A stretch of 64,000 nucleotides of DNA from positions 1 through 64,000 of the forward strand of contig JBIOZG010000005.1 of NCBI GenBank assembly GCA_044870765.1, in the 5' to 3' direction. The notes under the pieces are model-generated. The model made no database searches. It was not told the DNA's origin and saw only the letters and a list, made by a program, of their open reading frames with translations. Below, piece after piece: positions 1,775 to 24,964 of the stretch. Every line of letters starts with the position of its first letter. The stretch's first letter is position 1. The DNA comes from Nitrososphaeraceae archaeon. GTDB taxonomy: Archaea > Thermoproteota > Nitrososphaeria > Nitrososphaerales > Nitrososphaeraceae. The position numbers and the translations under genes are program-made.

Positions 1775-2512
1775 TTACCCTTCGCAACCCACGCCATCGC
1801 TATCAGAATCAAATCCGTGGGAATCTGGTGGCAGCACCTTAAAGTTTCTGAAGGGTATATCAGCACAGCTTAGCTTTTCAGAATAAGTTGTAATACAGAT
1901 ATCAGGGTACGATGGATCACATCCATCGCTGGAACCAACATCTGACTCAGAAGTCTGAGCTTTCCTTTCATCGTTGGTTTGATTTTGATTCTGATTTTGG
2001 TTTGTTTCATTCTGCTGATCCTGCTGACGCTGCTGCTCACTATTATTCTCTGCTAGCTGCAATTCTTTTTGTTGCACAGCTTCCTCAGAGCTACTTTGAT
2101 TTTGGTTTGTTTCATTCTGCCGATCCTGCTGACCTACATTTTCATTATTGCCATCAACATATTTTTCCTTAAAATAATTCGTATTCTCAAAGCACCTTAC
2201 GATTTCGTAATCTCCAAGTTTTTCTCCTACTTTGTCTGCCAGATCAATGCATCTTCTTAGGTCTTCTTTCGCGTTCTTGTAAACACTAGAATCTTTAAAT
2301 TTATCATAATTCATTTTGTCGTCATCTTTATCACCATTTCTTATGTCCTTAACCAACTCTTTCATGCTTTCATAATCTCTCCAAATCCCTTCTACAGCGT
2401 ATGCCTGGGAATTACTGACGAAAATAGAAATGATAGAAAAAGCAATGAACAGAATATAAAAGATGTGAAATTTCATTATATCTCCCGCTGCCATATTGTA
2501 TAATAGCACCAT
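1775..2512 (-). CDS. Secreted/membrane-anchored protein with Q/N-rich linker and C-terminal Excalibur-like Ca-binding domain
   Basis: Hydrophobic N-terminus ending AYA; QQQDQQNETNQNQ repeats; C-terminal CDPSYPDICI...C...DSHGFDSDSDGVGCE (DxDxDGxxCE). Confidence 0.75.
   Translation of the reverse strand: MVLLYNMAAGDIMKFHIFYILFIAFSIISIFVSNSQAYAVEGIWRDYESMKELVKDIRNGDKDDDKMNYDKFKDSSVYKNAKEDLRRCIDLADKVGEKLGDYEIVRCFENTNYFKEKYVDGNNENVGQQDRQNETNQNQSSSEEAVQQKELQLAENNSEQQRQQDQQNETNQNQNQNQTNDERKAQTSESDVGSSDGCDPSYPDICITTYSEKLSCADIPFRNFKVLPPDSHGFDSDSDGVGCEG
1992..2133. repeat. 37-bp direct repeat (1992-2028 and 2097-2133, one mismatch) inside the Q/N-rich linker
   Basis: tgattttggtttgtttcattctgc(t/c)gatcctgctgac occurs twice, 105 bp apart (in frame). 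Confidence 0.9.
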
Positions 2513-2885
2513 TACAAATAAAGATTTGAATCAAAGAATCTAAGTATTTCTCGATGGAAATCATATATATTATCGTGGTAGATTTGACAGCCACTAGATG
2601 TGTGAGATTCTATTTGAAGTGGAATCTCCTGATTGTGAGCGGTTCAAAGTAGATGAATGTGTTCTTTCAATATAGTTCAATGCGAATATCTTAACTAATC
2701 CATTTTTTTCCAGTTTTAAAATATTAATTGCATTTTACTGTGAAGTCCCTACCAACAAATAATTGTAATACCCGTTGTTACATACCGAAAGTCTAGTCTT
2801 CTATAACAATCTTAGAAAATATTGATATCTCCCAAATGTGTTGTATAAATAAATACGGGCTTGGCAAAATGAGGACTAGTATTGG

Positions 2886-2905
2886 TACAGTATCATGATA
2901 CTGTA
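2886..2905. promoter_or_regulatory. Perfect 20-bp palindrome, candidate operator
   Basis: tacagtatca|tgatactgta is its own reverse complement; it lies between two divergent paralogous genes. The regulatory role is inferred. Confidence 0.4.
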
Positions 2906-3120
2906 AATGATGACAGCGCGCACCATCTCCAAGACTCCTCCTTTACCCAAGTCCATTTCAAGTATTTTGCAATTTGTTGGACTTGGTAATGATCATACAG
3001 TCGAATCGGCTACCTGGATAGAACCAGGTCTCTCCCGATTAATCGCATTGACGGATCCACATAAGCCTTGCTTAAATTAGATCCTCAAATGTTAATAGTT
3101 GAGAGATAATCGGAATATCG

Positions 3121-3502
3121 ATGAATATGAAACAACAATCAACAACCAAATTCTTACAAGTGGTAGGGATTATTGCATCTGTTACCAACATTCCCTTACC
3201 TATACAAGGACTTCATAAAGAAACTGCACTGCTCAAAAAATATGATAAGCTGGAAGATTTAGTGAATGATATAAAACATGGTAAAGTGAATTTTAAGAAA
3301 TATAGGAATAATTATAGAATATCTCCTACGGTAATGAAGGATTCGCAGATATACAAAGGGGCCGACAAGAATGTACAAGACTGCATAAATTTTGCTGGAA
3401 GTATTGGAAATAATTTAAGGTGACCGTGAAGTAGTACATCGTTTTGATGATTCAAATTATTACAAAAACAAAAACTACAATGCTAACAATACAAGTTTTT
3501 AA
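3121..3502 (+). pseudogene. Frameshifted paralog of the N-terminal domain of 1775..2512
   Basis: YDKLEDLVNDIKHG..KDSQIYKGADKNVQDCINFAGSIGNNL aligns with YESMKELVKDIRNG..KDSSVYKNAKEDLRRCIDLADKVGEKL. Removing one A at 3417-3418 continues GDREVVHRFDDSNYYKNK (cf. GDYEIVRCFENTNYFKEK) to TAA 3500-3502. Confidence 0.8.
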
Positions 3503-3699
3503 TAATCCATTTACTTGCTGGTCTTGGATTGAAATACGATGGTTGCCAAGTTTTAGTAACATCTAAAGAAGATTAGAGTAATCGAAATACATAGTAAATC
3601 TTCATTGATAGTATATTCACATAATTTAGACTTATTCAATTGTACCCATCAGCTTTTCAATCGACTACAGATTAGCAAGTATATAAAACTCATCGTTGA

Positions 3700-6456
3700 T
3701 TATCTATCATTCCAAAATCCTCTAGTGGTAACGTATTGTCTTTCCGCATCGTAAATATTCTTGTAGAGGTTCTCATCGTCAACATAGTTGCGGAGTATCC
3801 GTGCAGCAGTTTCAACTCCTATTCCATACCCAGATAATACTGTTAACGCCTTCTTTCCAAAATTATTAATCAATGACGCAGTTTTCCACGCCCTTTCGAA
3901 TTTATGATTCTGTTCAGAATTAATCTGCGATCCTGATAATTTATTCAGTATTATTTTTGAAAGCTCATAATCGGAGGAAAATGTAGTCGTAATCAATCGT
4001 GAACCACATAATTTGCAGGAAATCGATCCGACCACCTCTCTTGTTTCAACCAGTCTTTCCCATTTGCCACATCTTATGCATATTAGACGATGTTTAGTCT
4101 TATCGAGTCTTTCCTTGATAAGTTCCAAGACTCCACGCTCAATACTTACTGGGGAGGACGACGCTTTTGAATGATGTTCTATAATACTCTGAGCCAATGG
4201 TGAGAATTGTTGTAAATCAAGCCAGTGTATTGAGATTTCTTTGTTTCTTATTTTTCCAAGAATTTCTTGTGTCCCTTTGATGTCAAACTTATCATGAGTT
4301 AATTCTCTTATTGACTCTTTACTAATTGGCGTCTTAGAGTATCTATCGTATATAAAACGCGCCAATCTTTTATCATAAATTGCGTTTTTGTCTATGAGAC
4401 CAAACTTCTTTGATACAGTCCAAACTCTCCAATTAAGATTATACGTATTAGTTAAAGAAGTAATGAGTATGGCTTCGACATCATACTCGTCGTACAATAT
4501 CTTTTCTATATTTGCTCTGGAAAGCCTAACAGAGGAGCTCAAGAGAATTCGATAGGGGTCTGACTTTGTTTCTACTAGGTGTCCAATATATGAGGCGAGG
4601 AACGTTGAAAAAAGAGAAGATAGGGTATTGTTGACTTTCGTACCAAAAGTTGAATGGACTACAACAGCATTTCTAGAGATTACGCCCTCTATTACTATAT
4701 TTTGGAAATCCGGAACTATGGGAATTTTTTGTAAGATGTCCTTTATATCTGATTGAAGCTTAAAGTTATTTTGATCAAGCGCTTTGTTTCTGAGATTTCC
4801 AACTTCCCTAGCGGTCTCTTGATCCACTGGTATCATTTCGCCAACCCAATGAGGTATATTTATTGGAGATCCAAAAACTTGTTCTACGTTAACCTGCAAT
4901 TTGTTCTCATCCACACTTATTATTCTCCACTGTGTTCCTTTCAAGATAAACACGTTTCCCCTTTCACCAAATTCGCCGATAAATTGTTGATCCAGAGTAC
5001 CGATTCTCTTTTTTCTTATTACATCGATAACTTCAAACTTTACTATGTTTGGTATAGTCGAAATATTTTCAAAATAATATTTGTATGATTTTATTCTTCT
5101 TGCGTATGTTTGACTTTTTGAATCATACTTGATAATTCTAAAGCTATCCAACAAAACAGCGCATTGTTCCACTTCCAAAAAAGTAAGGTCTTTAAAAGGA
5201 AACGCTCTTGAAATAGTTTGATAAACGTCGCCTAATTTTTTTGGTTCTGAAGATGATATTACAGATCCGACAAGATGATGTGATAGGACATCTAATGAGT
5301 TAGTATGAGGTTTCTGAATTTCTATTGATCTTTTCCTCATTCTATTGATAATAGATAAGGATTCAAGTTCATCATCTGCGCTATTTACTATTATTAATCC
5401 CTTGGCGGACTTATAATTGACATGTCTGCTTCTTCCTATCCTTTGAACTAGTTTTGAAACCTGTTTTGAAGATCCATAATGAATTACCAATTCTACAGAT
5501 CCAATGTCCAGACCTAATTCCAACGAAGATGTGCACACAACTATACCCGTTAGGCCATCCCTGAGTTTACTCTCAGTTTCTTCGCGTGTTTCCTTAGAGA
5601 GAGATCCATGATGTACTTCAACTGGGATATCGTTTTGATTTCTTATTGTTGTACCTATGTATTCAGCTTCATCTCTAGTATTTGTGAATAATAACACTGA
5701 TCCACAAATCTTGTTATCCTTGAGATAGTTTAGCACGAATTTGGCTACGTTGCTTATAGGGCCATTTAGATATTTTACATCAATGTCGTAATCTCTAATT
5801 GTATTATCTACAAGAATGGAGCATTTTCTATTCCTGCCGCTAATAAAATTTGCAGCATCCTTTAAGTTTCCAATAGTTGCAGACAGGCCTATCCTTACTA
5901 CATTGTGGGAACTTAGGTCCTGCAAACGTTCGAGGCTAACCGTCAAGTGGGTACCTCTTTCATTCCCTATTAGTTCGTGGACTTCGTCAACGATGACCCA
6001 TCTGAGGTGTTTGAGAAAAGATTTGAATTTATCCTGCGTTAGGATTATTCCTAATGATTCAGGCGTGGTTATGAGAATGTGAGGTGGTTTTTGTATTAAC
6101 TTCTGTTTTGCTGTTCTTGTTGTATCCCCATGTCTTATTCGAGCATCAAGATTCCTTTTTTTTGCATAGCTAATTATTCTTCGAAGTACATCGTTATTGA
6201 GGGCTCTTAGCGGGGTAATATAGAGTACAAGTATTGCATTATCATTTACAAAATCAACATTCTTTTTTCGTTCATTCTCTAGCTGAGAAAATATTGGAAT
6301 AATTGAGGCTTCTGTTTTTCCAGAGCCCGTCGGAGCAACAAGGAGACAATTTTGCTTATGAGTTATTACTGGGGCAGAAATTTTTTGGATCTTAGTTAAA
6401 TTTTGAAAACCCTCATTTCTGAAAGAATCAATTATATTTTCATCAATGACACTCAT
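3700..6456 (-). CDS. lhr: Lhr-family SF2 helicase
   Basis: APTGSGKT, ITPLRALNND, DEVH, IGLSAT, TSSLELGLDIG, QRIGRS; C-terminal CxxC..CxxC; 918 aa. Confidence 0.93.
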   Translation of the reverse strand: MSVIDENIIDSFRNEGFQNLTKIQKISAPVITHKQNCLLVAPTGSGKTEASIIPIFSQLENERKKNVDFVNDNAILVLYITPLRALNNDVLRRIISYAKKRNLDARIRHGDTTRTAKQKLIQKPPHILITTPESLGIILTQDKFKSFLKHLRWVIVDEVHELIGNERGTHLTVSLERLQDLSSHNVVRIGLSATIGNLKDAANFISGRNRKCSILVDNTIRDYDIDVKYLNGPISNVAKFVLNYLKDNKICGSVLLFTNTRDEAEYIGTTIRNQNDIPVEVHHGSLSKETREETESKLRDGLTGIVVCTSSLELGLDIGSVELVIHYGSSKQVSKLVQRIGRSRHVNYKSAKGLIIVNSADDELESLSIINRMRKRSIEIQKPHTNSLDVLSHHLVGSVISSSEPKKLGDVYQTISRAFPFKDLTFLEVEQCAVLLDSFRIIKYDSKSQTYARRIKSYKYYFENISTIPNIVKFEVIDVIRKKRIGTLDQQFIGEFGERGNVFILKGTQWRIISVDENKLQVNVEQVFGSPINIPHWVGEMIPVDQETAREVGNLRNKALDQNNFKLQSDIKDILQKIPIVPDFQNIVIEGVISRNAVVVHSTFGTKVNNTLSSLFSTFLASYIGHLVETKSDPYRILLSSSVRLSRANIEKILYDEYDVEAILITSLTNTYNLNWRVWTVSKKFGLIDKNAIYDKRLARFIYDRYSKTPISKESIRELTHDKFDIKGTQEILGKIRNKEISIHWLDLQQFSPLAQSIIEHHSKASSSPVSIERGVLELIKERLDKTKHRLICIRCGKWERLVETREVVGSISCKLCGSRLITTTFSSDYELSKIILNKLSGSQINSEQNHKFERAWKTASLINNFGKKALTVLSGYGIGVETAARILRNYVDDENLYKNIYDAERQYVTTRGFWNDR

Positions 6457-6585
6457 TCAGCTTCTCGATTTTTCTGCCTCTGCATCTTGATTCGTCTTTG
6501 TTCTCATTTTTTCGTAGAATATAGTTGCAACCAACCCAACTATTAATAGTCCAACTGCGAGCTGAACTAAAGTATCAAAATTCAT
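6457..6585 (-). CDS. 42-aa single-TM small protein abutting the lhr start
   Basis: MNFDTLVQLAVGLLIVGLVATIFYEKMRTKTNQDAEAEKSRS*; its TGA is directly followed by the lhr ATG; TTTATAAA about 30 nt upstream. Confidence 0.65.
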   Translation of the reverse strand: MNFDTLVQLAVGLLIVGLVATIFYEKMRTKTNQDAEAEKSRS

Positions 6586-6677
6586 TGTTGTTTACTAAAA
6601 CACACATTTCTCATTTATAAATCGATTGTAATTTAATAGACCATTGCAGATTATGAGTCAGGTTCAGCACAAGACAA

Positions 6678-18578: not shown

Positions 18579-18666
18579 TAAGTATAGTGAAATTTTACAG
18601 AGATATTAATTTAATTGAAAGTATTTCTTTCGATGTTATAATTATCCAAAAATATGCGGGAAATAA

Positions 18667-19065
18667 CTATTGTTCGGCTTTTTCGGATTCAGTCGTCGAG
18701 GTTTCAACCGGAGTTGGCAAGTTTCCTTCCAAGAGTAAACAATTTATCTGATATATTTCCTCCGTAATCATATTTCCCCTGACCAGTTTTCTCTTTCTTA
18801 TGCCTTCTCGATCATCTCTCATGCCTGCACCTTTGGACAACAGCACGTATTTTTTTACACCCCCGTGAACATCACTTCGGATAGGGGTTCCAGATTTATC
18901 ACTACCACCTTTTAATTGGATCTTTCCAGGAGTTATACCAACAACGGAAGCATCTACAATTTCTCCTACCCTTAGACCCACCAGGGGTTGAGCTTCTTTG
19001 TCCTTTAGTTCCTTGCTAACGCTTTTACCATTCTTATCAGAAACTATTATCTTGAACTGAGTCAA
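18667..19065 (-). CDS. rps6e: 30S ribosomal protein S6e
   Basis: GGSDKSGTPIRSDVHG, RKRKLVRGN, YQIN. Confidence 0.95.
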   Translation of the reverse strand: MTQFKIIVSDKNGKSVSKELKDKEAQPLVGLRVGEIVDASVVGITPGKIQLKGGSDKSGTPIRSDVHGGVKKYVLLSKGAGMRDDREGIRKRKLVRGNMITEEIYQINCLLLEGNLPTPVETSTTESEKAEQ

Positions 19066-19152
19066 TATGGATTCAAACAGATATCACATTTAATTAATCT
19101 TTGCAGAATAAACGCTAAATCCTTAATAAGTACCAATCCGATTACCTGAAAA

Positions 19153-19299
19153 GTGCATATAGAGGAAAAAAAAGAGGATGGAAATGAAAGAAAATGCTTA
19201 CGTTGTGGATACTCCATGTCTAGTATTCAAAGCTGCCATCTGCGATGTCAAAATTGTGGATCCGAATTAACCTGTTCTGACAAAGGATATGTTTGGTAA
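19153..19299 (+). CDS. 48-aa zinc-finger micro-protein (HVO_2523-like pattern)
   Basis: GTG start; (M)HIEEKKEDGNERKCLRCGYSMSSIQSCHLRCQNCGSELTCSDKGYVW*; ttaataa TATA about 25-30 nt upstream. Confidence 0.75.
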   Translation: MHIEEKKEDGNERKCLRCGYSMSSIQSCHLRCQNCGSELTCSDKGYVW

Positions 19300-19488
19300 A
19301 GCACTTGGACTGGGCAACAGACGTAAGAAAAACAAATACGAGAAAATACTTGAAGAAATAGAGTAAAAGAAAGACTCAGATATTAGAGGATAACTAAATA
19401 AGGGGAATATTGTGAATATATTATACGATACTAGTCGTTAGGAAGAATGGGAAACGTAAGGAAGAAATAAATGAAGTGATTAATTTTA

Positions 19489-19870
19489 TCAGGGTCTAAG
19501 CACTGCTACCATTATCATTCTACCTGTCACAAGAGCAAGAATAGAAAGACCTACATTTCCAATTAAATTCAAACCAAATAGTACAAAATGTTTGGAATCA
19601 ATAAGACTGACAGATTGAAGTGCAAATGAAGACATGGTTGTAAAAGATCCACAAAACCCTATGGCCAAAAAGACAGAATACTTTGGATCGAGATCAAAAT
19701 GCATGGATATAACCACGAACATTCCTAGAATGAAACTTCCGATGACATTGATAATTAAAATATTAATTGGTAACACGCCTAGGAGGATAGGAGACTCTGC
19801 TATCTTATACCTCAAAAAAAGCACCTGCTAGAGCACCTAACCCTAATATCAGAAATTCAATTCCTTTCAA
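19489..19870 (-). pseudogene. crcB: Fluoride channel Fluc/CrcB, interrupted by one extra base in a T7 run (19814-19820)
   Basis: TTG at 19870 gives MKGIEFLILGLGALAGAF then a stop; with T6 instead of T7 it continues LRYKI..INVIGSFILG..GFCGSFTTMSSF as a 126-aa Fluc. Confidence 0.88.
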
Positions 19871-19894
19871 TTTTTGCCCACCATTTTTTTAATT

Positions 19895-19957
19895 GGTAGG
19901 CATTATCAGCATTTAAAAATGCGGTTTTGGTAATTCCAAGGCTAATGCCATAGCCCA
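19895..19957 (-). ncRNA. Fluoride riboswitch (crcB motif)
   Basis: Minus strand GGGCTATGGCATTAGCC..AAAACCGC..GCTGATAATGCCTAC: P1 GGCTA/TAGCC, pseudoknot GGCATT/AATGCC, conserved AACCGC and GCTGAT..CCTAC; 25 nt upstream of crcB. Confidence 0.92.
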
Positions 19958-19975
19958 GGTAGGTTTTATGACTCT

Positions 19976-19988
19976 AGATATATTAATT
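19976..19988 (-). promoter_or_regulatory. TATA box for the riboswitch-crcB transcript
   Basis: Minus-strand aattaatatatct about 20-30 nt upstream of riboswitch P1. Confidence 0.55.
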
Positions 19989-20023
19989 GTTTACTGATTT
20001 CCTTCGATAGAGCAGTTTGAGAA

Positions 20024-21244
20024 TTAAGAGATTGTGTCAGCAACTTCTGCCTTAGAATATGCTTTCCTTAACCATATTGGAGTAATTAGTGTGGTTACAG
20101 CAACCATAATGATAACGGTCGTGTAGATGTTTGATGACAAAACACCAGACGTTACCCCAATCCCTGCAACTATGAGACCAACTTCTCCTCTTGATATCAT
20201 ACCAATACCTACTATCATAGCCTTTGATTTATTCTTCAAAAATAACAGGGATGGCAATCCACATCCTAGCAATTTACTGACAATTGCAACAACAATTACT
20301 ATAGCGGATAAGACTACGACTTCCATATTCACTCCAGTAAGATTTACTTGTGCGCCAATTATTGCGAAAAATAAAGGACCGAAAATTATCTCTAATTTAT
20401 CGACGTATTCTTCAACTCGTTTTAGTATTTTTGTGCTGGCAATGGCCATTCCTACGGAAAATGATCCTACTATGGGGGATAGTCCTACTGCCGCGGCTAT
20501 TGCTGACGCTCCAAAGAATGAAGCAGTAACTATACCCTCAACACTACCTCTTGCCTTCCATAATCTTTCGGTGTTTACTATTCTTGGTATTATGAGTATG
20601 GCTCCGATAAGTAAGCCAGCAAATATACCTAATATTTTTAGAATTAGAATTATGATATCGATAACGTTTGGCGCCATGTTGTCAGTTTGAACCATTGTCA
20701 CTACAACGGATAGAACTGCTATAGCAAGAATATCATCTACTATAGCCGCTCCTAGAATAATTTTGGCTTCTTTTGTTTGCATCTTTCCAAATTCTGTTAA
20801 CACGCTCACTGATATTGCAATACTGGTTGCAGTAAGTGCGGTTGCAATGAGAACGGATTCCAAAGCGTCTAGTCCATACAGAGTAAATACATAATATCCC
20901 AAGAGGAAAGGAACAATAACTCCACATGCACCGATTGTAAAAGACGCCGCTCCTCCTCTCACGAATTCTTTCGGAGTGATGGTAAGCCCCGCAATGAATA
21001 ATATGACAATTCCGGCGATTTGACCTATTTGCAGAACTGTCTCATTTAAGATCACAAGCGGTTTGCCATCAAATATAGGTATTGAACCCAACGCGAAAGG
21101 ACCTACAATAATACCAGCAATCAACTCGCCTAAAACAGCCGGAAGTCTTAATTTATTGAAAATTTCTGCAAATATTTTTGCGGCAAAAAGCAAGACGGCA
21201 AGGGAAATTAAAACATGTATTATTGCTTCTTGCTCTGCTGCCAA
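20024..21244 (-). CDS. Cation:proton antiporter (CPA2, NapA-like)
   Basis: LPAVLGELIAG, ATSIAIS, GAAIVDDI, KLLGC, GMISRGEVGL; many TM helices. Confidence 0.93.
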   Translation of the reverse strand: MAAEQEAIIHVLISLAVLLFAAKIFAEIFNKLRLPAVLGELIAGIIVGPFALGSIPIFDGKPLVILNETVLQIGQIAGIVILFIAGLTITPKEFVRGGAASFTIGACGVIVPFLLGYYVFTLYGLDALESVLIATALTATSIAISVSVLTEFGKMQTKEAKIILGAAIVDDILAIAVLSVVVTMVQTDNMAPNVIDIIILILKILGIFAGLLIGAILIIPRIVNTERLWKARGSVEGIVTASFFGASAIAAAVGLSPIVGSFSVGMAIASTKILKRVEEYVDKLEIIFGPLFFAIIGAQVNLTGVNMEVVVLSAIVIVVAIVSKLLGCGLPSLLFLKNKSKAMIVGIGMISRGEVGLIVAGIGVTSGVLSSNIYTTVIIMVAVTTLITPIWLRKAYSKAEVADTIS

Positions 21245-21528
21245 CCTTTATCATTACGTTTATGATATTGATTTAATAAAATTTATGATTGCGTCGACTT
21301 TTCCTTATTTAAGTTAGTTTATCCTGTATTATGTAATGGGCTTGTTGACTAATACAAACTTGATAGAATATCCAATCCAGAATTCTTAATTCACTATCCA
21401 ATGGATCGGCTTCAAAAATAGAATCTGATGGGGGATTGTTTTACCAAGTTATGCAGCAGATAAACCAATTGTCCCATCAGATTGATAAGGAACGTAATAT
21501 GTTGAAATTAAAGATAATAAATAATTAA

Positions 21529-21633
21529 CTAATGCGCATAGGCGATAGCGGTTACGACTAACCCCATAACCATAACAGTTAGTGCAGTTGCAACAATTTG
21601 CAATATCAATAATACAATAGTTAAAAAATCCAA
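21529..21633 (-). CDS. 34-aa hydrophobic peptide
   Basis: TTG start; MDFLTIVLLILQIVATALTVMVMGLVVTAIAYAH*; one uninterrupted hydrophobic stretch. Confidence 0.45.
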   Translation of the reverse strand: MDFLTIVLLILQIVATALTVMVMGLVVTAIAYAH

Positions 21634-21919
21634 TTAAAACCTAATGCAAGAAAATTCTGAAAGTTGTTCTATAAATAAAATCGTACTTATATTTCATCAT
21701 CGATTACATCAGAGACTACATATTTCGGATCCCGTTAAGAAGGACCATGCTATTAAAAATTAACTAATTGTAATATAAGACTGAGTAGACAAGATGGAGA
21801 ATAAGAAATTCCTAAAACAATAAAAATAGATGGATATAACAAAATTGTACGCCCTCTAGAAAAGAGACCAGAGAACATTAAAAAAGAATGGTGTGCTTAT
21901 ATTTTCCAATATTAAAGAA

Positions 21920-22015
21920 ATGAAATCATGCTGTTGTGTTTGTCCATGCACTGTTGAATGTCCTTGCAAATGTCCTTGTGATTGTAGCAAATGTATTTGG
22001 GAGAATATGAATTAA
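21920..22015 (+). CDS. 31-aa metallothionein-like Cys-rich peptide
   Basis: MKSCCCVCPCTVECPCKCPCDCSKCIWENMN*; 11 Cys in a 22-residue core, encoded by mixed TGT/TGC codons. Confidence 0.6.
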   Translation: MKSCCCVCPCTVECPCKCPCDCSKCIWENMN

Positions 22016-22417
22016 ATCTAAAAAAGGATATAACTTCTTATTATGATTACTTGATGCAACCAGGCTTTCCTTGAAGGCTTACAACATAAAATAAAAGTTG
22101 TTACTGATTCAACCCATGATTATTCATAAATTCTATTAATTCTTTATCAACATCTATACAAGTTTTGATGTTAAACCAAGATGGAATGAAACCGGTCTTG
22201 ACAAGATCCATTACAACATTTTCATCCTTCGCAACTCGATCAGCAAGTTAAATTGATTGTATAAGCAAAACAAAGGATATTTTTGGTAAGATCATCATCA
22301 ATTTATGCAATCCTAGTTATGTAAGAGGAGGTTCACACATACAAAACATACATGCTTACGCATACTCATGATTACCTAGTTTGATAATTTTGATTATTAA
22401 TTTGATTTACTTTAAAT

Positions 22418-22591
22418 TTACAGATTGCCTTTAAACTGATAATTATCAGCCATATTTTCAGCCTTTGATTTCATCGTTTCTATATAATTTTCATAATTAT
22501 CTGTATAACCGCAATTTTTGCACTCAACTCTTGTAACGTCATCATCAACTTGTGCTCTATTATCACATTTGGGGCATTTTGCGTCAAGCAA
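22418..22591 (-). CDS. 57-aa zinc-ribbon protein
   Basis: MLDAKCPKCDNRAQVDDDVTRVECKNCGYTDNYENYIETMKSKAENMADNYQFKGNL*; TATA-like AT box about 30 nt upstream; resembles 37224..37406. Confidence 0.8.
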   Translation of the reverse strand: MLDAKCPKCDNRAQVDDDVTRVECKNCGYTDNYENYIETMKSKAENMADNYQFKGNL

Positions 22592-22634
22592 TACTTCTTT
22601 AATTTACGTATTCTGGTTATTATATTTTGGTAGT

Positions 22635-23813
22635 TTAAGCCTGAAGGTTGGATTGTCCTAATAGTGGAGTTGCCTTGAGAATAATAATCTCTGAATTAGG
22701 ATTATTTTTAGTTAGTTTTTGAAAATCTGTCTTTGAACATGAAACTACTATGAGTTTTTTTTCACTTGAATAAAAGTCAAACATCGAATCTTGTCTTTCA
22801 ACATCACCCACATAATCTTTCAATCTTGATTCCAATCTGGATATTATTTCCAATCTATCACCTCTCATTTCATTTGGATCACACGTCCATGAAATTATCG
22901 CTTTTGTTTTGCTTGCTTTCAATTCGTATTTCTTTAGAATAATTTTTATCTGTTCGGTCAAGTGTTTTATGTAGTTCTCTACTGTGGCAATATTGCCCTT
23001 AAGCAAGAGAGTCAACGGAGAAATTCCAGTCAGAGATGACAATATAGTATTCAAATCAAATAACCCTCCTACTAGGTCGTCAAGATACATCTCATCAAAT
23101 GATTCGGTTTCAGTATTCTGATGTTGAAAATTATTATCTGCGAATTTGCAAATTTCAAATATTGGCGACATCAAGCCATAATGTCTCAATATTCTAATGC
23201 AATAAATGTACTCTGCAGATTCAATATCTACCATCTTCATTGTTTTGTCGGAATAAAGTCCACTTAACATGCTTGCAAAGTTAGAATTCAGCTCAGTTCT
23301 AGTTCCGATTATTGCATCAAACAAGTTTGACGAAATGGAGCTAATAGGCATATAGTGATAGAATATATTTTTGCCAACACTCAGACCTGTTCGATGTTCT
23401 ATCAAAGTTATGTTTTCATTGTTTACTCCAAAGCCTGCAGGAACGGTGTAGATTATTGAACTATCTTTGCTCACGTGTTTTATCACATCCTGAAACTTGG
23501 ACACAATATGGTTCCTTGCATCAGGCCATGATTTTCTGATTCTTGGACTAAAGAAAATAAATGATGCATTATTGATGGCTACATCAAAAGGTTCAAAATC
23601 CAAGAGAGTTTCGTCTTGAATAAATGAAGTTACACTAGAATAGGTCTTGGCGATATCTGGTTTAAGGGTAATCGCCATTCCAGAAGAATCATCGATAATT
23701 GAAACTGGTATACCTTTAGTAGAAATATGAGAGGCAATTCTATATCCTTCAGTACTTAATCCATAGACAGCTACCTTCGATGATTCAACAGTCAATGGCA
23801 ATATCGACCCCAA
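22635..23813 (-). CDS. Degenerate nucleotide-sugar dehydrogenase-like protein
   Basis: Rossmann-like start KVAVYGLSTEGY, IIYTVPAG, DIESAEY, late DPNEMRGDR; lacks the GGHC catalytic motif. Confidence 0.55.
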   Translation of the reverse strand: MGSILPLTVESSKVAVYGLSTEGYRIASHISTKGIPVSIIDDSSGMAITLKPDIAKTYSSVTSFIQDETLLDFEPFDVAINNASFIFFSPRIRKSWPDARNHIVSKFQDVIKHVSKDSSIIYTVPAGFGVNNENITLIEHRTGLSVGKNIFYHYMPISSISSNLFDAIIGTRTELNSNFASMLSGLYSDKTMKMVDIESAEYIYCIRILRHYGLMSPIFEICKFADNNFQHQNTETESFDEMYLDDLVGGLFDLNTILSSLTGISPLTLLLKGNIATVENYIKHLTEQIKIILKKYELKASKTKAIISWTCDPNEMRGDRLEIISRLESRLKDYVGDVERQDSMFDFYSSEKKLIVVSCSKTDFQKLTKNNPNSEIIILKATPLLGQSNLQA

Positions 23814-23851
23814 TTAGCATATGTGTGTTCCTGAACCAAAATTAAAATTGG

Positions 23852-24964
23852 TTGAAGAAAAGTTTTTTCTATGAGGATACTTATACATGGTGCTTGAGAA
23901 TCTGGTTTGACGTTTTAACCCCAAAACAGGTTATGTTCTTCAAATATGCAGTGGAACTCCTAAGACAAAGAGATTACAAAGTCTTGTGTACGGCAAGAAA
24001 CTATCGAGAATGTGTAAAGTTGGCAAGATTAAAGAAATTTGAACTGAGATTGGTGGGGGAGCATGGGGGTTCCTCAAAATATGACAAATTAAGAGCAAGT
24101 TCTAGCAGGATTTTTGATTTGGCGAAAGAGATTGAGAGATTTAATCCCGATCTATGTATTAGCTTTTCCTCGCCAGAAGCGGCAAGAGTGGCGTTTGGTT
24201 TGGGAATACCTCACATCACCTTTAGTGATTCCCCACATGCTCAGGCTGTTCAAAAGTTGACAGTTCCATTTGTTAATTATCTTTTGTGTCCTTGGATTAT
24301 TCCATATTCAGCATGGGACAATTTGGGTATCTCGAGAAATCAAATTGTTCGTTATCGGGCATTAGATCCGGTTGCGTGGATAAGAAAGGATACAAAAAAT
24401 ATTGACTCGGCTAAATTAATGAAAAAATATCAACTTTCAAAAAGCAATACGTTTGTGATTAGGCCTGAAGAAAGTAAGGCGTCATATTTGATAGACAAGG
24501 CTAATAATGATGTGAATAATATCTTAAAATCTATAGTTCAGAACTTTCATGATACAACAAATATCCTGGTCCTATGCAGATATCAGGACCAAATAAGACA
24601 ATTCAAGGAAAAATATGACGACAAAATCAGGGTATTGGAAAATGTAGTCGACGGCTTGGAGCTTATATCGGTTGCCGATATCTTTATTGGCGGTGGTGGA
24701 ACCATGACTGCCGAATCAGCACTCCTTGGAAAACCAACTATTTCAATTTCTCCGATAAAATTCTATGTAGATGACTACCTGGTAAAAACCAGTCTCATTT
24801 ATAAAATTAAAAATCCAGCCCAGATTGTAAAAACACTACGCCGCATTCAATCTGATAATTTATTTAGGCTTAGGCAGAAAAATAGAGCTCAGCATATACT
24901 GAACCGAATGGAAGATCCAGCGAACAAATTGCTAAAAATTGTTGGTAAATTCGTATCTTTATAA
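23852..24964 (+). CDS. DUF354-family GT-B-fold protein (true start probably TTG about 23894)
   Basis: IWFDVLTPKQV, VGEHGG, SPEAARVAFGLGIP, IRPEE..ASY, GGGGTMTAESALLGKP. Confidence 0.85.
   Translation: MKKSFFYEDTYTWCLRIWFDVLTPKQVMFFKYAVELLRQRDYKVLCTARNYRECVKLARLKKFELRLVGEHGGSSKYDKLRASSSRIFDLAKEIERFNPDLCISFSSPEAARVAFGLGIPHITFSDSPHAQAVQKLTVPFVNYLLCPWIIPYSAWDNLGISRNQIVRYRALDPVAWIRKDTKNIDSAKLMKKYQLSKSNTFVIRPEESKASYLIDKANNDVNNILKSIVQNFHDTTNILVLCRYQDQIRQFKEKYDDKIRVLENVVDGLELISVADIFIGGGGTMTAESALLGKPTISISPIKFYVDDYLVKTSLIYKIKNPAQIVKTLRRIQSDNLFRLRQKNRAQHILNRMEDPANKLLKIVGKFVSL

What the first reader, a model, noticed from the sequence alone, without database searches (positions are those of the whole stretch)
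21920..22015. Candidate archaeal metallothionein: 31 aa, 11 Cys
Seen: MKSCCCVCPCTVECPCKCPCDCSKCIWENMN*, with CCC and repeated CxC/CPC motifs and no aromatic residue in the core. Mixed TGT/TGC codons argue against a simple DNA repeat. Known: CxC-dense tiny peptides typify metallothioneins, which to my knowledge are not well characterised in archaea, and ammonia-oxidising archaea depend heavily on copper. Inference: an unannotated Cu/Zn/Cd-buffering peptide. Caveat: the nearest TATA-like box (about 21897) is closer to the ATG than in neighbouring genes, and an in-frame GTG exists at 21893.
Basis: partly seen in the sequence, partly recalled or inferred. Interest (0 to 1): 0.78.

Follow-up and report, generated by a model that had tools for sequence, protein, structure and literature searches.

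The report
Mobile metallothionein-like mini-gene in soil archaea
A real 31-codon gene for a peptide that is one-third cysteine sits on a small piece of mobile DNA in a soil ammonia-oxidising archaeon; it looks like a metal-binding metallothionein, but nobody has tested whether it binds metal.

Summary
The ORF is exactly as described (window 21920-22015, 31 aa, 11 Cys). It is the only such ORF in the 2.0-Mb genome. The same 28-codon core occurs in 6 of 40 species genomes of one Nitrososphaeraceae genus and on 38 metagenome contigs, and nowhere else in 1.84 billion representative proteins.

The core has no stop and no indel in 24 unique sequences, while the flanks carry 17 indels. Cys codons change about five times less often than the neighbouring codons or the upstream DNA. 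This argues that a Cys-rich peptide is translated and selected.

It matches no Pfam metallothionein family, solved structure or Rfam family, so it is metallothionein-like by composition only. Metal binding is untested.

The setting is new:
- The gene lies in a 2,990-bp insertion flanked by 20-bp direct repeats. A relative with 95-96% identical flanking DNA has the empty site and carries its own copy in a different 4.7-kb insertion.
- The variable "tail" after the core is a relic of the 3' end of a proviral terminase gene.

Verdict: a real, accessory, horizontally moving Cys-rich mini-gene. Metallothionein function is plausible but unproven.

The parts
21920..22015 (+). Cys-rich ORF: 31 codons plus TAA. 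Codons 1-28 are the conserved core; codons 29-31 (NMN) and the stop already lie in terminase-derived DNA.
   Evidence: The frame is open in all 44 loci (one ends at codon 27). Cys codons are selected.
21855..21919 (+). Conserved upstream block (-65..-1): promoter and/or 5' UTR of the ORF. It includes the TTATAT box at 21897-21902 and the in-frame GTG at 21893.
   Evidence: Column identity is 0.89-0.97 over 22 unique sequences. In the genus it is found only together with the core. It carries 1-nt indels, so it is non-coding.
21834..21841 (+). Second, distal A/T box (ATATAACA). It is an alternative promoter that would give a 5' UTR of roughly 55 nt. It is present in only about half of the unique relatives.
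   Evidence: column identity 0.65-0.72. Its role is inferred, not shown.
22015..22094 (+). Decayed relic of the 3' end of a proviral terminase large-subunit gene. It reads NLKKDITSYYDY... in frame +2, then LLDATRLSLKAYNIK* in frame +1, relative to the Cys ORF.
   Evidence: window 22009-22046 matches the C28 terL fragment at 86.8%.
19280..19299 (.). Left 20-bp direct repeat (ACAAAGGATATGTTTGGTAA) bounding the insertion.
22270..22289 (.). Right 20-bp direct repeat (ACAAAGGATATTTTTGGTAA). The relative G012 has a single copy at its empty site.
19300..22269 (.). Inserted accessory segment, absent from relative G012. It carries crcB (19489-19824, -), a Na+/H+ exchanger (20024-21244, -), a 78-nt dispersed repeat (21350-21427), the Cys gene and the terminase relic.

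Best explanation
The window encodes a genuine 31-residue peptide whose only selected feature is its array of 10-11 cysteines (CCC, C-x-C and CPC motifs).

Most likely mechanism (inferred): the peptide is unfolded on its own and wraps its thiolates around a small cluster of soft metal ions, as metallothioneins do. By analogy with known metallothioneins, 11 thiolates could hold about four Zn(II)/Cd(II) or six to eight Cu(I). It would then buffer or detoxify metal in the cytoplasm of a copper-dependent ammonia oxidiser.

The gene is not part of the core genome. It travels as a compact unit of about 150 nt of conserved upstream DNA plus the core. This unit is fused to a fragment of the 3' end of a proviral terminase gene and sits inside small insertions that differ between close relatives.

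Shown here: the ORF, its conservation, selection on the Cys codons, the insertion with its empty site, and the terminase origin of the tail.

Inferred: translation, metal binding, which metal, and how the unit moves.
For: 1. Rarity. It is the only ORF of 9,733 in the genome with at least 30% Cys.

2. Conservation.
- The same core is in 6 of 40 species genomes of the genus and in 38 usable metagenome contigs of the 43 fetched.
- Only 9 hits, all the same family, appear among 1.84 billion representative proteins.

3. Reading frame.
- Frame 0 has 0 stops in 20 unique cores. The two other plus-strand frames have 20 and 55 stops.
- There are 0 indels in the 84-nt core, against 7 in the 70 nt upstream and 10 in the 76 nt downstream (24 unique sequences).
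- The one insertion seen is 6 nt, in frame, and adds Gly-Cys (L046).

4. Selection on Cys, from Fitch counts on a tree of 24 unique sequences (seed codons excluded).
- Cys codons change 0.375, 0 and 0.5 times per site at positions 1, 2 and 3.
- Non-Cys codons change 1.17, 1.0 and 1.23 times per site. The upstream DNA changes 1.06 times per site.
- Cys positions 1+2 against either background give p = 1.4e-4 to 4.7e-4.
- pN/pS in frame 0 is 0.37 overall and 0.20-0.21 within classes.
- Ten Cys are invariant in 19 distinct peptides.

5. Composition meets the operational metallothionein criteria. AlphaFold gives no autonomous fold (mean pLDDT 56). That is compatible with metal-dependent folding but is not evidence for it.

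6. Mobility.
- Empty site with a 20-bp direct repeat in G012, and a reciprocal 4.7-kb insertion in G012.
- No shared neighbours among species.
- The island's identity is out of step with the eIF2-gamma gene.

7. Weak hint of transcription. Two contigs of 151-152 nt from metatranscriptome libraries of two studies cover 21869-22019 and 21898-22048. DNA carry-over is not excluded.
Against: - No test of metal binding, translation or metal-responsive expression was possible.
- No match to any Pfam metallothionein model at E<=10, nor to any solved metallothionein by sequence or profile. The protein-atlas lead to a metallothionein cluster scored only 0.76, which is within chance range.
- The upstream non-coding block is as conserved as the core. 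Codon-position periodicity over the whole core is weak (0.81, 0.57 and 0.91 changes per site). Much of the conservation therefore reflects recent spread, not selection.
- No metal-homeostasis gene recurs next to it. The 57 neighbouring ORFs examined in 16 loci are heterogeneous.
- One Cys (C18) is replaced by Ser in the whole long-form clade.
- 41 of the 43 metagenome loci carry the core, but all were retrieved with an exact 20-mer inside it. Codons 20-26 are therefore invariant by construction in those loci and were left out of the counts.
- The transcription start is unknown, and the nearest TATA-like box is too close to the ATG.
Confidence: 0.45

Rival explanations
1. It is a real Cys-rich peptide, but with another role. 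It could be a small Zn- or Fe-S-binding structural or regulatory protein, a thiol/redox buffer, or a cargo gene ('moron') that serves the mobile element or provirus, for example in exclusion or counter-defence, rather than metal buffering for the host.
For: The selection and frame evidence is the same as for the main reading. It always sits in mobile or accessory DNA next to terminase 3' fragments and sometimes next to integrases. No metal-homeostasis genes recur nearby.
Against: Eleven Cys in 28 residues with nearly neutral spacer residues is the metallothionein pattern. Structural zinc ribbons and Fe-S proteins normally also conserve non-Cys residues and fold in prediction, but here mean pLDDT is 56 with no secondary structure. 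No PADLOC or PHROG test of the peptide was run.
Confidence: 0.3
2. It is not a protein gene. The roughly 150-nt block (-65..+84) would be a conserved DNA or RNA element of a mobile element, such as recombination arm sites, a small RNA or a promoter. The open, Cys-rich frame would be a by-product of TGT/CCT-rich repeats such as TGTCCTTGT.
For: The upstream non-coding part is as conserved as the ORF. Three copies of TGTCC(C/T)TG(C/T) lie in the core. Synonymous sites of the core are far less diverged than those of the adjacent tail (pS 0.22 against 0.90 in the same four sequences). There is no direct proof of translation.
Against: Conservation inside the core is codon-specific. TG of the Cys codons is kept, while P9, position 7 and positions 11-13, 17 and 27-28 vary freely. 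There are no indels in the core but 17 in the flanks. No Rfam family matched. The consensus fold is weak, -12.7 kcal/mol over 210 columns. The low synonymous divergence is explained by recent horizontal spread.
Confidence: 0.12
3. It is a precursor of a ribosomally made, post-translationally modified or secreted Cys-rich peptide (RiPP).
For: It is small and Cys-dense, with variable residues between the Cys.
Against: None of the 57 neighbouring ORFs in 16 locus types matches a radical-SAM, YcaO, lanthipeptide or other maturase family, or an export family. There is no leader: Cys starts at residue 4. There is no signal peptide. The neighbourhood is not conserved.
Confidence: 0.05
4. The core and the terminase-derived tail are joined into one protein by programmed ribosomal frameshifting in the lineages where the tail is out of frame. 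The window's lineage is one of these.
For: In four out-of-frame (+2) lineages the tail shows a strong coding signature (pN/pS 0.12, pS 0.90) although it has no start codon of its own. Two of them have stops just upstream in that frame.
Against: - The tail lies in frame 0, +1 or +2, or is absent, in different lineages. No shared slippery site exists.
- Where the tail is in frame it evolves neutrally (pN/pS 1.2).
- The coding signature is what isolated terminase 3' fragments show anyway. Out-of-frame tails are no closer to each other (75-78% nt identity) than to free terminase fragments (72-77%).
- The window's own tail is broken by a further frameshift.
Confidence: 0.03

Closest known systems
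Metallothioneins as an operational class: small all-Cys types such as fungal Cu-thioneins and the 11-Cys alpha-domain of vertebrate MTs (both recalled from general knowledge), and mycobacterial MymT (read in PMC7558416, section 4.3)
   Same: Very small size; 35% Cys in CC, C-x-C and CPC motifs; almost no aromatic residues and no His; only the Cys are conserved; no fold predicted without metal.
   Different: No sequence or profile similarity to any Pfam MT family or solved MT. It is archaeal, accessory and mobile. Metal binding is untested.
Bacterial SmtA/BmtA metallothioneins (described in PMC7558416, section 4.3)
   Same: A prokaryotic Cys-rich metal-sequestering protein with patchy distribution.
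   Different: SmtA has a zinc-finger-like fold and His ligands. This peptide has neither, and it did not match any Pfam model.
Other archaeal metallothionein-like micro-ORFs noted earlier in this scan (e1-3845275, e1-2523665, e1-2635229 in marine ammonia oxidisers; e1-3815467 in a soil archaeon)
   Same: Unstudied Cys9-Cys11 peptides of 39-48 aa in archaea, with MT-like composition.
   Different: Those notes describe families conserved across whole families of organisms, or tied to an operon. This one is confined to part of one genus and rides on insertions. No sequence link appeared: the sequence look-up was empty, and the profile search found only its own family. I did not see their sequences.
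Phage and prophage 'morons': small cargo genes with their own promoter carried by mobile elements
   Same: A compact unit of promoter plus ORF, embedded in mobile DNA beside viral gene remnants, with patchy and incongruent distribution.
   Different: It was not found on any contig of the viral collection by its 20-mer. No intact provirus lies next to it in the window.

Membership tests
Metallothionein (operational class) | Low molecular mass (under about 10 kDa) | tested here: met
   31 aa. Relatives are 27-33 aa, or 55-70 aa with the tail.
Metallothionein (operational class) | High Cys content in CC, C-x-C and C-x-x-C motifs | tested here: met
   11 of 31 residues are Cys. Ten Cys are invariant in 19 distinct peptides.
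Metallothionein (operational class) | Few or no aromatic residues and His | tested here: met
   One Trp (W27, itself variable: C or R in some relatives). No His, Phe or Tyr.
Metallothionein (operational class) | Binds several metal ions in metal-thiolate clusters | not testable with these tools
   This needs ESI-MS, UV or NMR titration of the peptide.
Metallothionein (operational class) | Expression responds to metal | not tested
   Only two short contigs in metatranscriptome libraries cover it. There are no condition data.
Known MT sequence families (Pfam metallothionein models, solved MT chains) | Significant profile or sequence match | tested here: not met
   0 Pfam families at E<=10. 0 PDB sequences by phmmer at E<=10. 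The profile search found one unrelated chain at E=0.36.
RiPP precursor | Conserved neighbouring maturase or transporter genes | tested here: not met
   57 neighbouring ORFs in 16 locus types include no maturase-type family and no recurrent partner.
Terminase large subunit (applies to the tail only) | Homology to the C-terminus of a TerL protein | tested here: met
   The tail aligns with the last 25-30 residues of a 486-aa protein (L084). That protein hits phrog_2, terminase large subunit, at E=5.5e-19.
Site-specific integrative element (applies to the 2,990-bp segment) | Direct repeats at both ends, and an empty site with one repeat in a relative | tested here: met
   A 20-bp repeat lies at 19280-19299 and 22270-22289, and once in G012.
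Site-specific integrative element (applies to the 2,990-bp segment) | Own integrase or recombinase gene | tested here: not met
   No integrase lies in the segment. Integrase homologues lie beside the island only in other loci (L024 type; a frameshifted one in L016).

The most novel reading that the evidence does not exclude
A self-contained metallothionein cassette (promoter plus 28-codon Cys core) moves horizontally among soil ammonia-oxidising archaea. It would do so by recombining through fragments of proviral terminase 3' ends that act as portable attachment or homology sites. That would make it the first mobile metal-tolerance micro-gene, and the first functional metallothionein, described in Archaea.
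Probability: 0.2. Interest if true: 0.78.

Novelty: new variant of a known kind. Interest (0 to 1): 0.55.

Why it matters
Ammonia-oxidising archaea depend on copper enzymes and are sensitive to metal availability, yet no archaeal metallothionein has been characterised. My searches of the held library found none. Reviews I recall call the class absent from Archaea.

A 31-residue peptide is cheap to synthesise, so the metal-binding question can be tested directly.

The setting is also informative. The gene is an accessory cassette that differs between genomes whose flanking DNA is 94-96% identical. It could therefore mark local adaptation of soil nitrifiers to metal load. Its fusion to terminase 3' fragments points to an undescribed way in which small genes are shuffled in Nitrososphaeraceae.

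Tried and rejected
- **Pfam** on the 31-aa and 40-aa forms: 0 families at E<=10.
- **PDB by sequence and by profile:** nothing relevant.
- **Rfam** on 21300-22700 at E<=1: two chance snoRNA-type hits far below threshold, neither on the ORF.
- **Protein atlas with a long-form relative:** best score 0.80; a metallothionein cluster ranked 7th at 0.76. Both are within the range that shuffled sequences reach.
- **AlphaFold2 on a 19-sequence alignment:** mean pLDDT 56, no fold, so no fold search was run.
- **Consensus RNA fold of -110..+100:** weak (-12.7 kcal/mol), with too little variation to test covariation.
- **Viral contig collection, exact 20-mer:** 0 hits.
- **Upstream block as a shared operator of another operon:** in the 40 genus genomes it occurs only with the core. 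Other hits are AT-rich matches of about 20 nt.
- **Sequencing runs:** only two RNA-library runs held a small share (0.05) of the words. When laid, each gave one contig of 151-152 nt over the ORF region, unstranded, at depth about 3. This neither proves transcription nor gives a start site.
- **Weak hits outside the genus (E 0.013-0.55):** I inspected L006. Its hit overlaps a longer open frame in another frame, so it is chance.
- **Alternative frames:** frame +1 of the core is a hydrophobic peptide with pN/pS 1.19 and no conserved start. The antisense frames give pN/pS 0.68-1.48. All were rejected as coding.
- **GTG at 21893 as the start:** rejected.
- **A shared AAAGGATAT string** in the 20-bp repeat and at the core-tail junction: not conserved in other terminase fragments, so I make no claim from it.
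- **First protein search:** I repeated it with the window's own 40-aa GTG-start ORF.

Full report
**1. The observation**

Window 21920-22015 (+) reads MKSCCCVCPCTVECPCKCPCDCSKCIWENMN followed by a stop. That is 31 aa with 11 Cys (3 TGC, 8 TGT), one Trp, and no His, Phe or Tyr.

I scanned all six frames of the organism's 2,015,293-bp assembly (36% G+C). Of 9,733 ATG-ORFs of 25-120 aa, only this one has at least 30% Cys; the runner-up has 8 Cys in 37 aa. It is single-copy. The genome carries archaeal amoA. Related MAG records are titled Nitrososphaeraceae archaeon, so this is a soil-type ammonia oxidiser.

**2. Distribution**

- *Relatives in the order.* A protein search of 41 relatives found strong matches (E <= 1.6e-7) in four other genomes of the same genus. 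The 16 other families of the order gave only weak hits (E 0.013-0.55). The weak hit I inspected is an out-of-frame stretch inside a longer open frame.
- *The genus.* A profile search of all 40 genus genomes found the gene in 6: G000, G008, G012, G015, G024 and G043. A seventh 12-residue match at E=0.3 is discounted.
- *Protein databases.* The word-indexed database gave 5 proteins. An exhaustive HMMER search of 1.84 billion representatives gave 9 at E<=0.001. All carry the same core, and none has a name or a Pfam domain.
- *Species-representative genome collection.* A scan returned four Nitrososphaeraceae MAGs and one 12-residue chance match in an Acidimicrobiales MAG.
- *Metagenome contigs.* An exact 20-mer from the core found 43 contigs. 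Two are chance matches without the ORF (L021, L047). Three are cut before the ATG (L036, L043, L052).

This leaves 44 distinct loci: the window, 5 species genomes and 38 contigs. They give 28 unique DNA sequences.

The genus tallies include two genomes flagged unpublished (G020, G045). Both lack the gene, and no conclusion rests on them. One terminase fragment used for comparison (L075) comes from G020 and can be dropped without effect.

**3. Is it coding?**

- *Frame.* Frame 0 of codons 1-19 has no stop in 20 unique sequences. Frames +1 and +2 have 20 and 55 stops.
- *Indels.* Across 24 unique sequences there are 7 distinct indels in the 70 nt upstream, 10 in the 76 nt downstream and none in the 84-nt core. 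The only length change seen in a core is a 6-nt in-frame insertion that adds Gly-Cys (L046).
- *pN/pS.* In frame 0 it is 0.37 over all sequences and 0.20-0.21 within the two main classes. It is about 1 or undefined in frame +1 and the antisense frames.
- *Where the changes fall.* Fitch counts on a tree of 24 unique sequences, with the 20-mer seed codons left out, are in the table.

| Sites | Changes per site |
|---|---|
| Non-coding block -65..-1 | 1.06 |
| Non-Cys codons, positions 1 / 2 / 3 | 1.17 / 1.0 / 1.23 |
| Cys codons, positions 1 / 2 / 3 | 0.375 / 0 / 0.5 |

Cys positions 1+2 are lower than either background, with p = 1.4e-4 and 4.7e-4. Non-Cys codons do not differ from the upstream DNA (p = 0.91).

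So only the cysteines, plus M1, K2, P15, P19 and the DCSK stretch, are held. Ten Cys are invariant in 19 distinct peptides. This is how metallothioneins evolve, and a DNA- or RNA-level element would not produce it easily.

Caveats:
- The numbers are small.
- The sequences are related to one another.
- The metagenome set was retrieved with a seed inside the core. However, proteins found without the seed show the same invariant CPCDCSKC.

**4. Start codon and promoter**

The GTG at 21893 is out of frame or missing in 4 of 28 unique relatives, so the ATG is the conserved start.

The 65 nt before the ATG are as conserved as the core, with column identity 0.89-0.97. Within the genus they occur only with the core.

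The TTATAT box is centred only about 20 nt before the ATG. That is closer than the usual archaeal spacing of about 26 nt, which I state from general knowledge. A second box (ATATAACA, 21834-21841) would start transcription near 21862-21866, but only about half of the relatives have it. I could not settle the start site.

Two metatranscriptome libraries from two studies each hold one contig of 151-152 nt, covering 21869-22019 and 21898-22048. If these are RNA, the first one favours an upstream start. They are unstranded, and DNA carry-over is not excluded.

**5. The tail, and what it really is**

After codon 28 the relatives diverge into classes.

| Class | Loci | What follows the core |
|---|---|---|
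| A | 15 | Runs on in frame 0, e.g. ...EIKIKSKKDITTYDYLLDGLLVSLKAKISNDGVRDSEYIRKKL; proteins of 55-70 aa; C18 replaced by Ser |
| B | 13, including the window | Stops after 3-5 more codons; the same tail follows in frame +2 |
| C | 3 | Tail in frame +1 |
| D | 9 | No tail |
| Other | 4 | 2 have a diverged 39-aa form; 2 are cut by contig ends |

The in-frame tail evolves neutrally (pN/pS 1.2). The out-of-frame tail of four class-B lineages looks strongly coding (pS 0.90, pN/pS 0.12).

The explanation came from searching the tail alone. It matches the C-terminus of a 486-aa protein (L084). That protein ends ...LRTAYANELSLDKDQTSYSDLLDGLRLGLKAYQISN and hits PHROG phrog_2, terminase large subunit, at E=5.5e-19.

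Further observations on these terminase fragments:
- The window's own genome holds five isolated 3'-terminal fragments of this gene (last 27-72 codons) and one N-terminal pseudogene.
- Further fragments lie within 0.25-1.3 kb of the Cys gene, in the same orientation, in five other locus types.
- Class-B tails are no more similar to each other (75-78% nt identity) than to free terminase fragments (72-77%).

I therefore read the tail as terminase-derived DNA that carries the coding signature of viral terL genes. It was probably renewed by recombination with them. I do not read it as part of the peptide's function.

In the window the relic (22015-22094) is further broken by a frameshift. Programmed frameshifting that joins core and tail is not excluded, but I find it unlikely.

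**6. Genomic setting**

Around the ORF the window carries housekeeping genes: anthranilate synthase, eIF2-gamma, ribosomal proteins S6e, L10 and L1, and the CCA-adding enzyme. There is no provirus and no integrase.

*The empty site in G012.*
- G012's eIF2-gamma gene is 96% identical to the window's.
- In G012, the equivalent of window 18600-19299 joins directly to the equivalent of 22270-24900.
- The 20-bp sequence ACAAAGGATAT(G/T)TTTGGTAA lies at both ends of the extra DNA in the window (19280-19299 and 22270-22289). It occurs once at G012's empty site.

*What the 2,990-bp insertion carries.*
- crcB and a Na+/H+ exchanger. An 88.9%-identical second copy of this pair lies on contig C4.
- A 78-nt dispersed repeat.
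- The Cys gene.
- The terminase relic.

*The reciprocal case.* G012's own Cys gene (class A) lies in a segment of about 4.7 kb that is absent from G000 contig C22. That segment is bounded by a different AT-rich repeat of about 15 bp.

*Incongruent identities.*
- No neighbour is shared among the species.
- The island is less similar between G000 and G012 (90-93%) than eIF2-gamma (96%).
- It is more similar to G008, G015, G024 and G043 (82-91%) than eIF2-gamma is (71-81%).

Together these show an accessory gene that spreads horizontally within the genus. This also explains why the non-coding block looks highly conserved: it is young, not constrained.

*Integrases.* A tyrosine integrase lies directly beside the tail in one locus type (six contigs). 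A frameshifted integrase lies 3 kb away in G015.

**7. Function**

Nothing computational gives a function beyond composition:
- No Pfam, PDB or Rfam match.
- Atlas leads within chance range.
- AlphaFold2 mean pLDDT 56 with no secondary structure.
- No recurrent partner gene, and no maturase that would suggest a modified peptide.

The best-supported mechanism is therefore by analogy. A small peptide in which only the Cys are conserved, and whose Cys sit in CCC, C-x-C and CPC motifs, most likely forms a metal-thiolate cluster.

The review I read (PMC7558416, section 4.3) describes metallothioneins in just these terms. It describes bacterial examples as rare: SmtA, and the 4.9-kDa MymT that is predicted to bind up to six Cu(I). 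That the vertebrate alpha-domain uses 11 Cys for four divalent ions is my recollection.

The company of crcB and a cation/proton exchanger on the same insertion hints at an ion-stress islet. This holds only for the window and its nearest relatives.

**8. Novelty**

- Four full-text searches found no paper on an archaeal or thaumarchaeal metallothionein. 'Archaeal metallothionein' gave 0 papers. The other three searches returned only unrelated soil-ecology and review papers, judged from listings and abstracts.
- One passage search of PMC9781358 showed its only 'archaea' mention is in a reference title.
- Earlier notes of this scan describe other Cys9-Cys11 micro-ORFs in marine ammonia oxidisers, Micrarchaeota and a soil archaeon. 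The general idea of unstudied MT-like peptides in Archaea is therefore no longer singular. I found no sequence link to them.

What is particular here is a new sequence family that is accessory, rides on insertions and is welded to terminase 3' fragments.

**Verdict**

The gene is real and selected, and it is metallothionein-like by composition only.
- Interest is moderate (0.55). It is a cheap, direct experimental target with an unusual mobile setting, but its function is unproven and its range is narrow.

Noticed in passing
window 19280-22289: A 2,990-bp insertion flanked by 20-bp direct repeats. It carries crcB, a Na+/H+ exchanger, a dispersed repeat, the Cys gene and a terminase relic. Relative G012 has the empty site.
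   Followed up: yes
window 19489-21301 and G000 contig C4:1369-3172: The crcB plus Na+/H+ exchanger pair on the insertion has a second copy in the same genome at 88.9% nucleotide identity over 1.8 kb. This suggests a copy acquired from a related organism.
   Followed up: partly
window 21350-21427 (extending to about 21530): A repeat of about 78 nt with at least 12 partial or whole copies in the window's genome and many in G012. It often lies near integrases or terminase fragments, and it recurs near the Cys gene in other loci in varying position and orientation. The stretch just after it (about 21424-21484) holds an 11-nt inverted repeat. No Rfam match.
   Followed up: partly
G000 contigs C28:21480-21695, C30:19722-19880, C30:20625-20750, C21:8990-9094, C43:90026-90106; C41:4904-5755: Five isolated 3'-terminal fragments of a proviral terminase large-subunit gene, but only one N-terminal pseudogene. 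Tandem same-strand fragments also occur in metagenome loci. The 3' end of terL may act as an attachment or recombination site in these archaea.
   Followed up: partly
L039/L040 compared with window 20005-21318: The closest metagenome relatives (95-98% identity) lack the 1.3-kb stretch that holds the Na+/H+ exchanger gene. The insertion is therefore itself a mosaic of cassettes.
   Followed up: no
L018 (G012:C21) 1928-6600: A 4.7-kb insertion relative to G000:C22. It is made of pieces that are repeated on many G000 contigs, carries G012's Cys gene, and is bounded by an AT-rich repeat of about 15 bp.
   Followed up: partly
L024:3285-3800 and L024:278-1273: On a contig that carries the Cys gene, a 172-aa ORF matches the type VI secretion Hcp family (PF05638, E=8.8e-25). 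A tyrosine integrase lies directly beside the terminase-derived tail.
   Followed up: no
window 21856-21990 (-): A 44-aa His/Gln-rich antisense ORF overlaps the core and the upstream block. It shows no coding signature (pN/pS 0.68-1.48 in antisense frames) and is broken by the upstream indels in relatives, so it is a by-product of the TGY-rich sense strand.
   Followed up: partly
window 22418-22591 (-): A 57-aa ORF with two CxxC pairs and weak zinc-ribbon matches lies just outside the insertion. It is conserved in G012.
   Followed up: no
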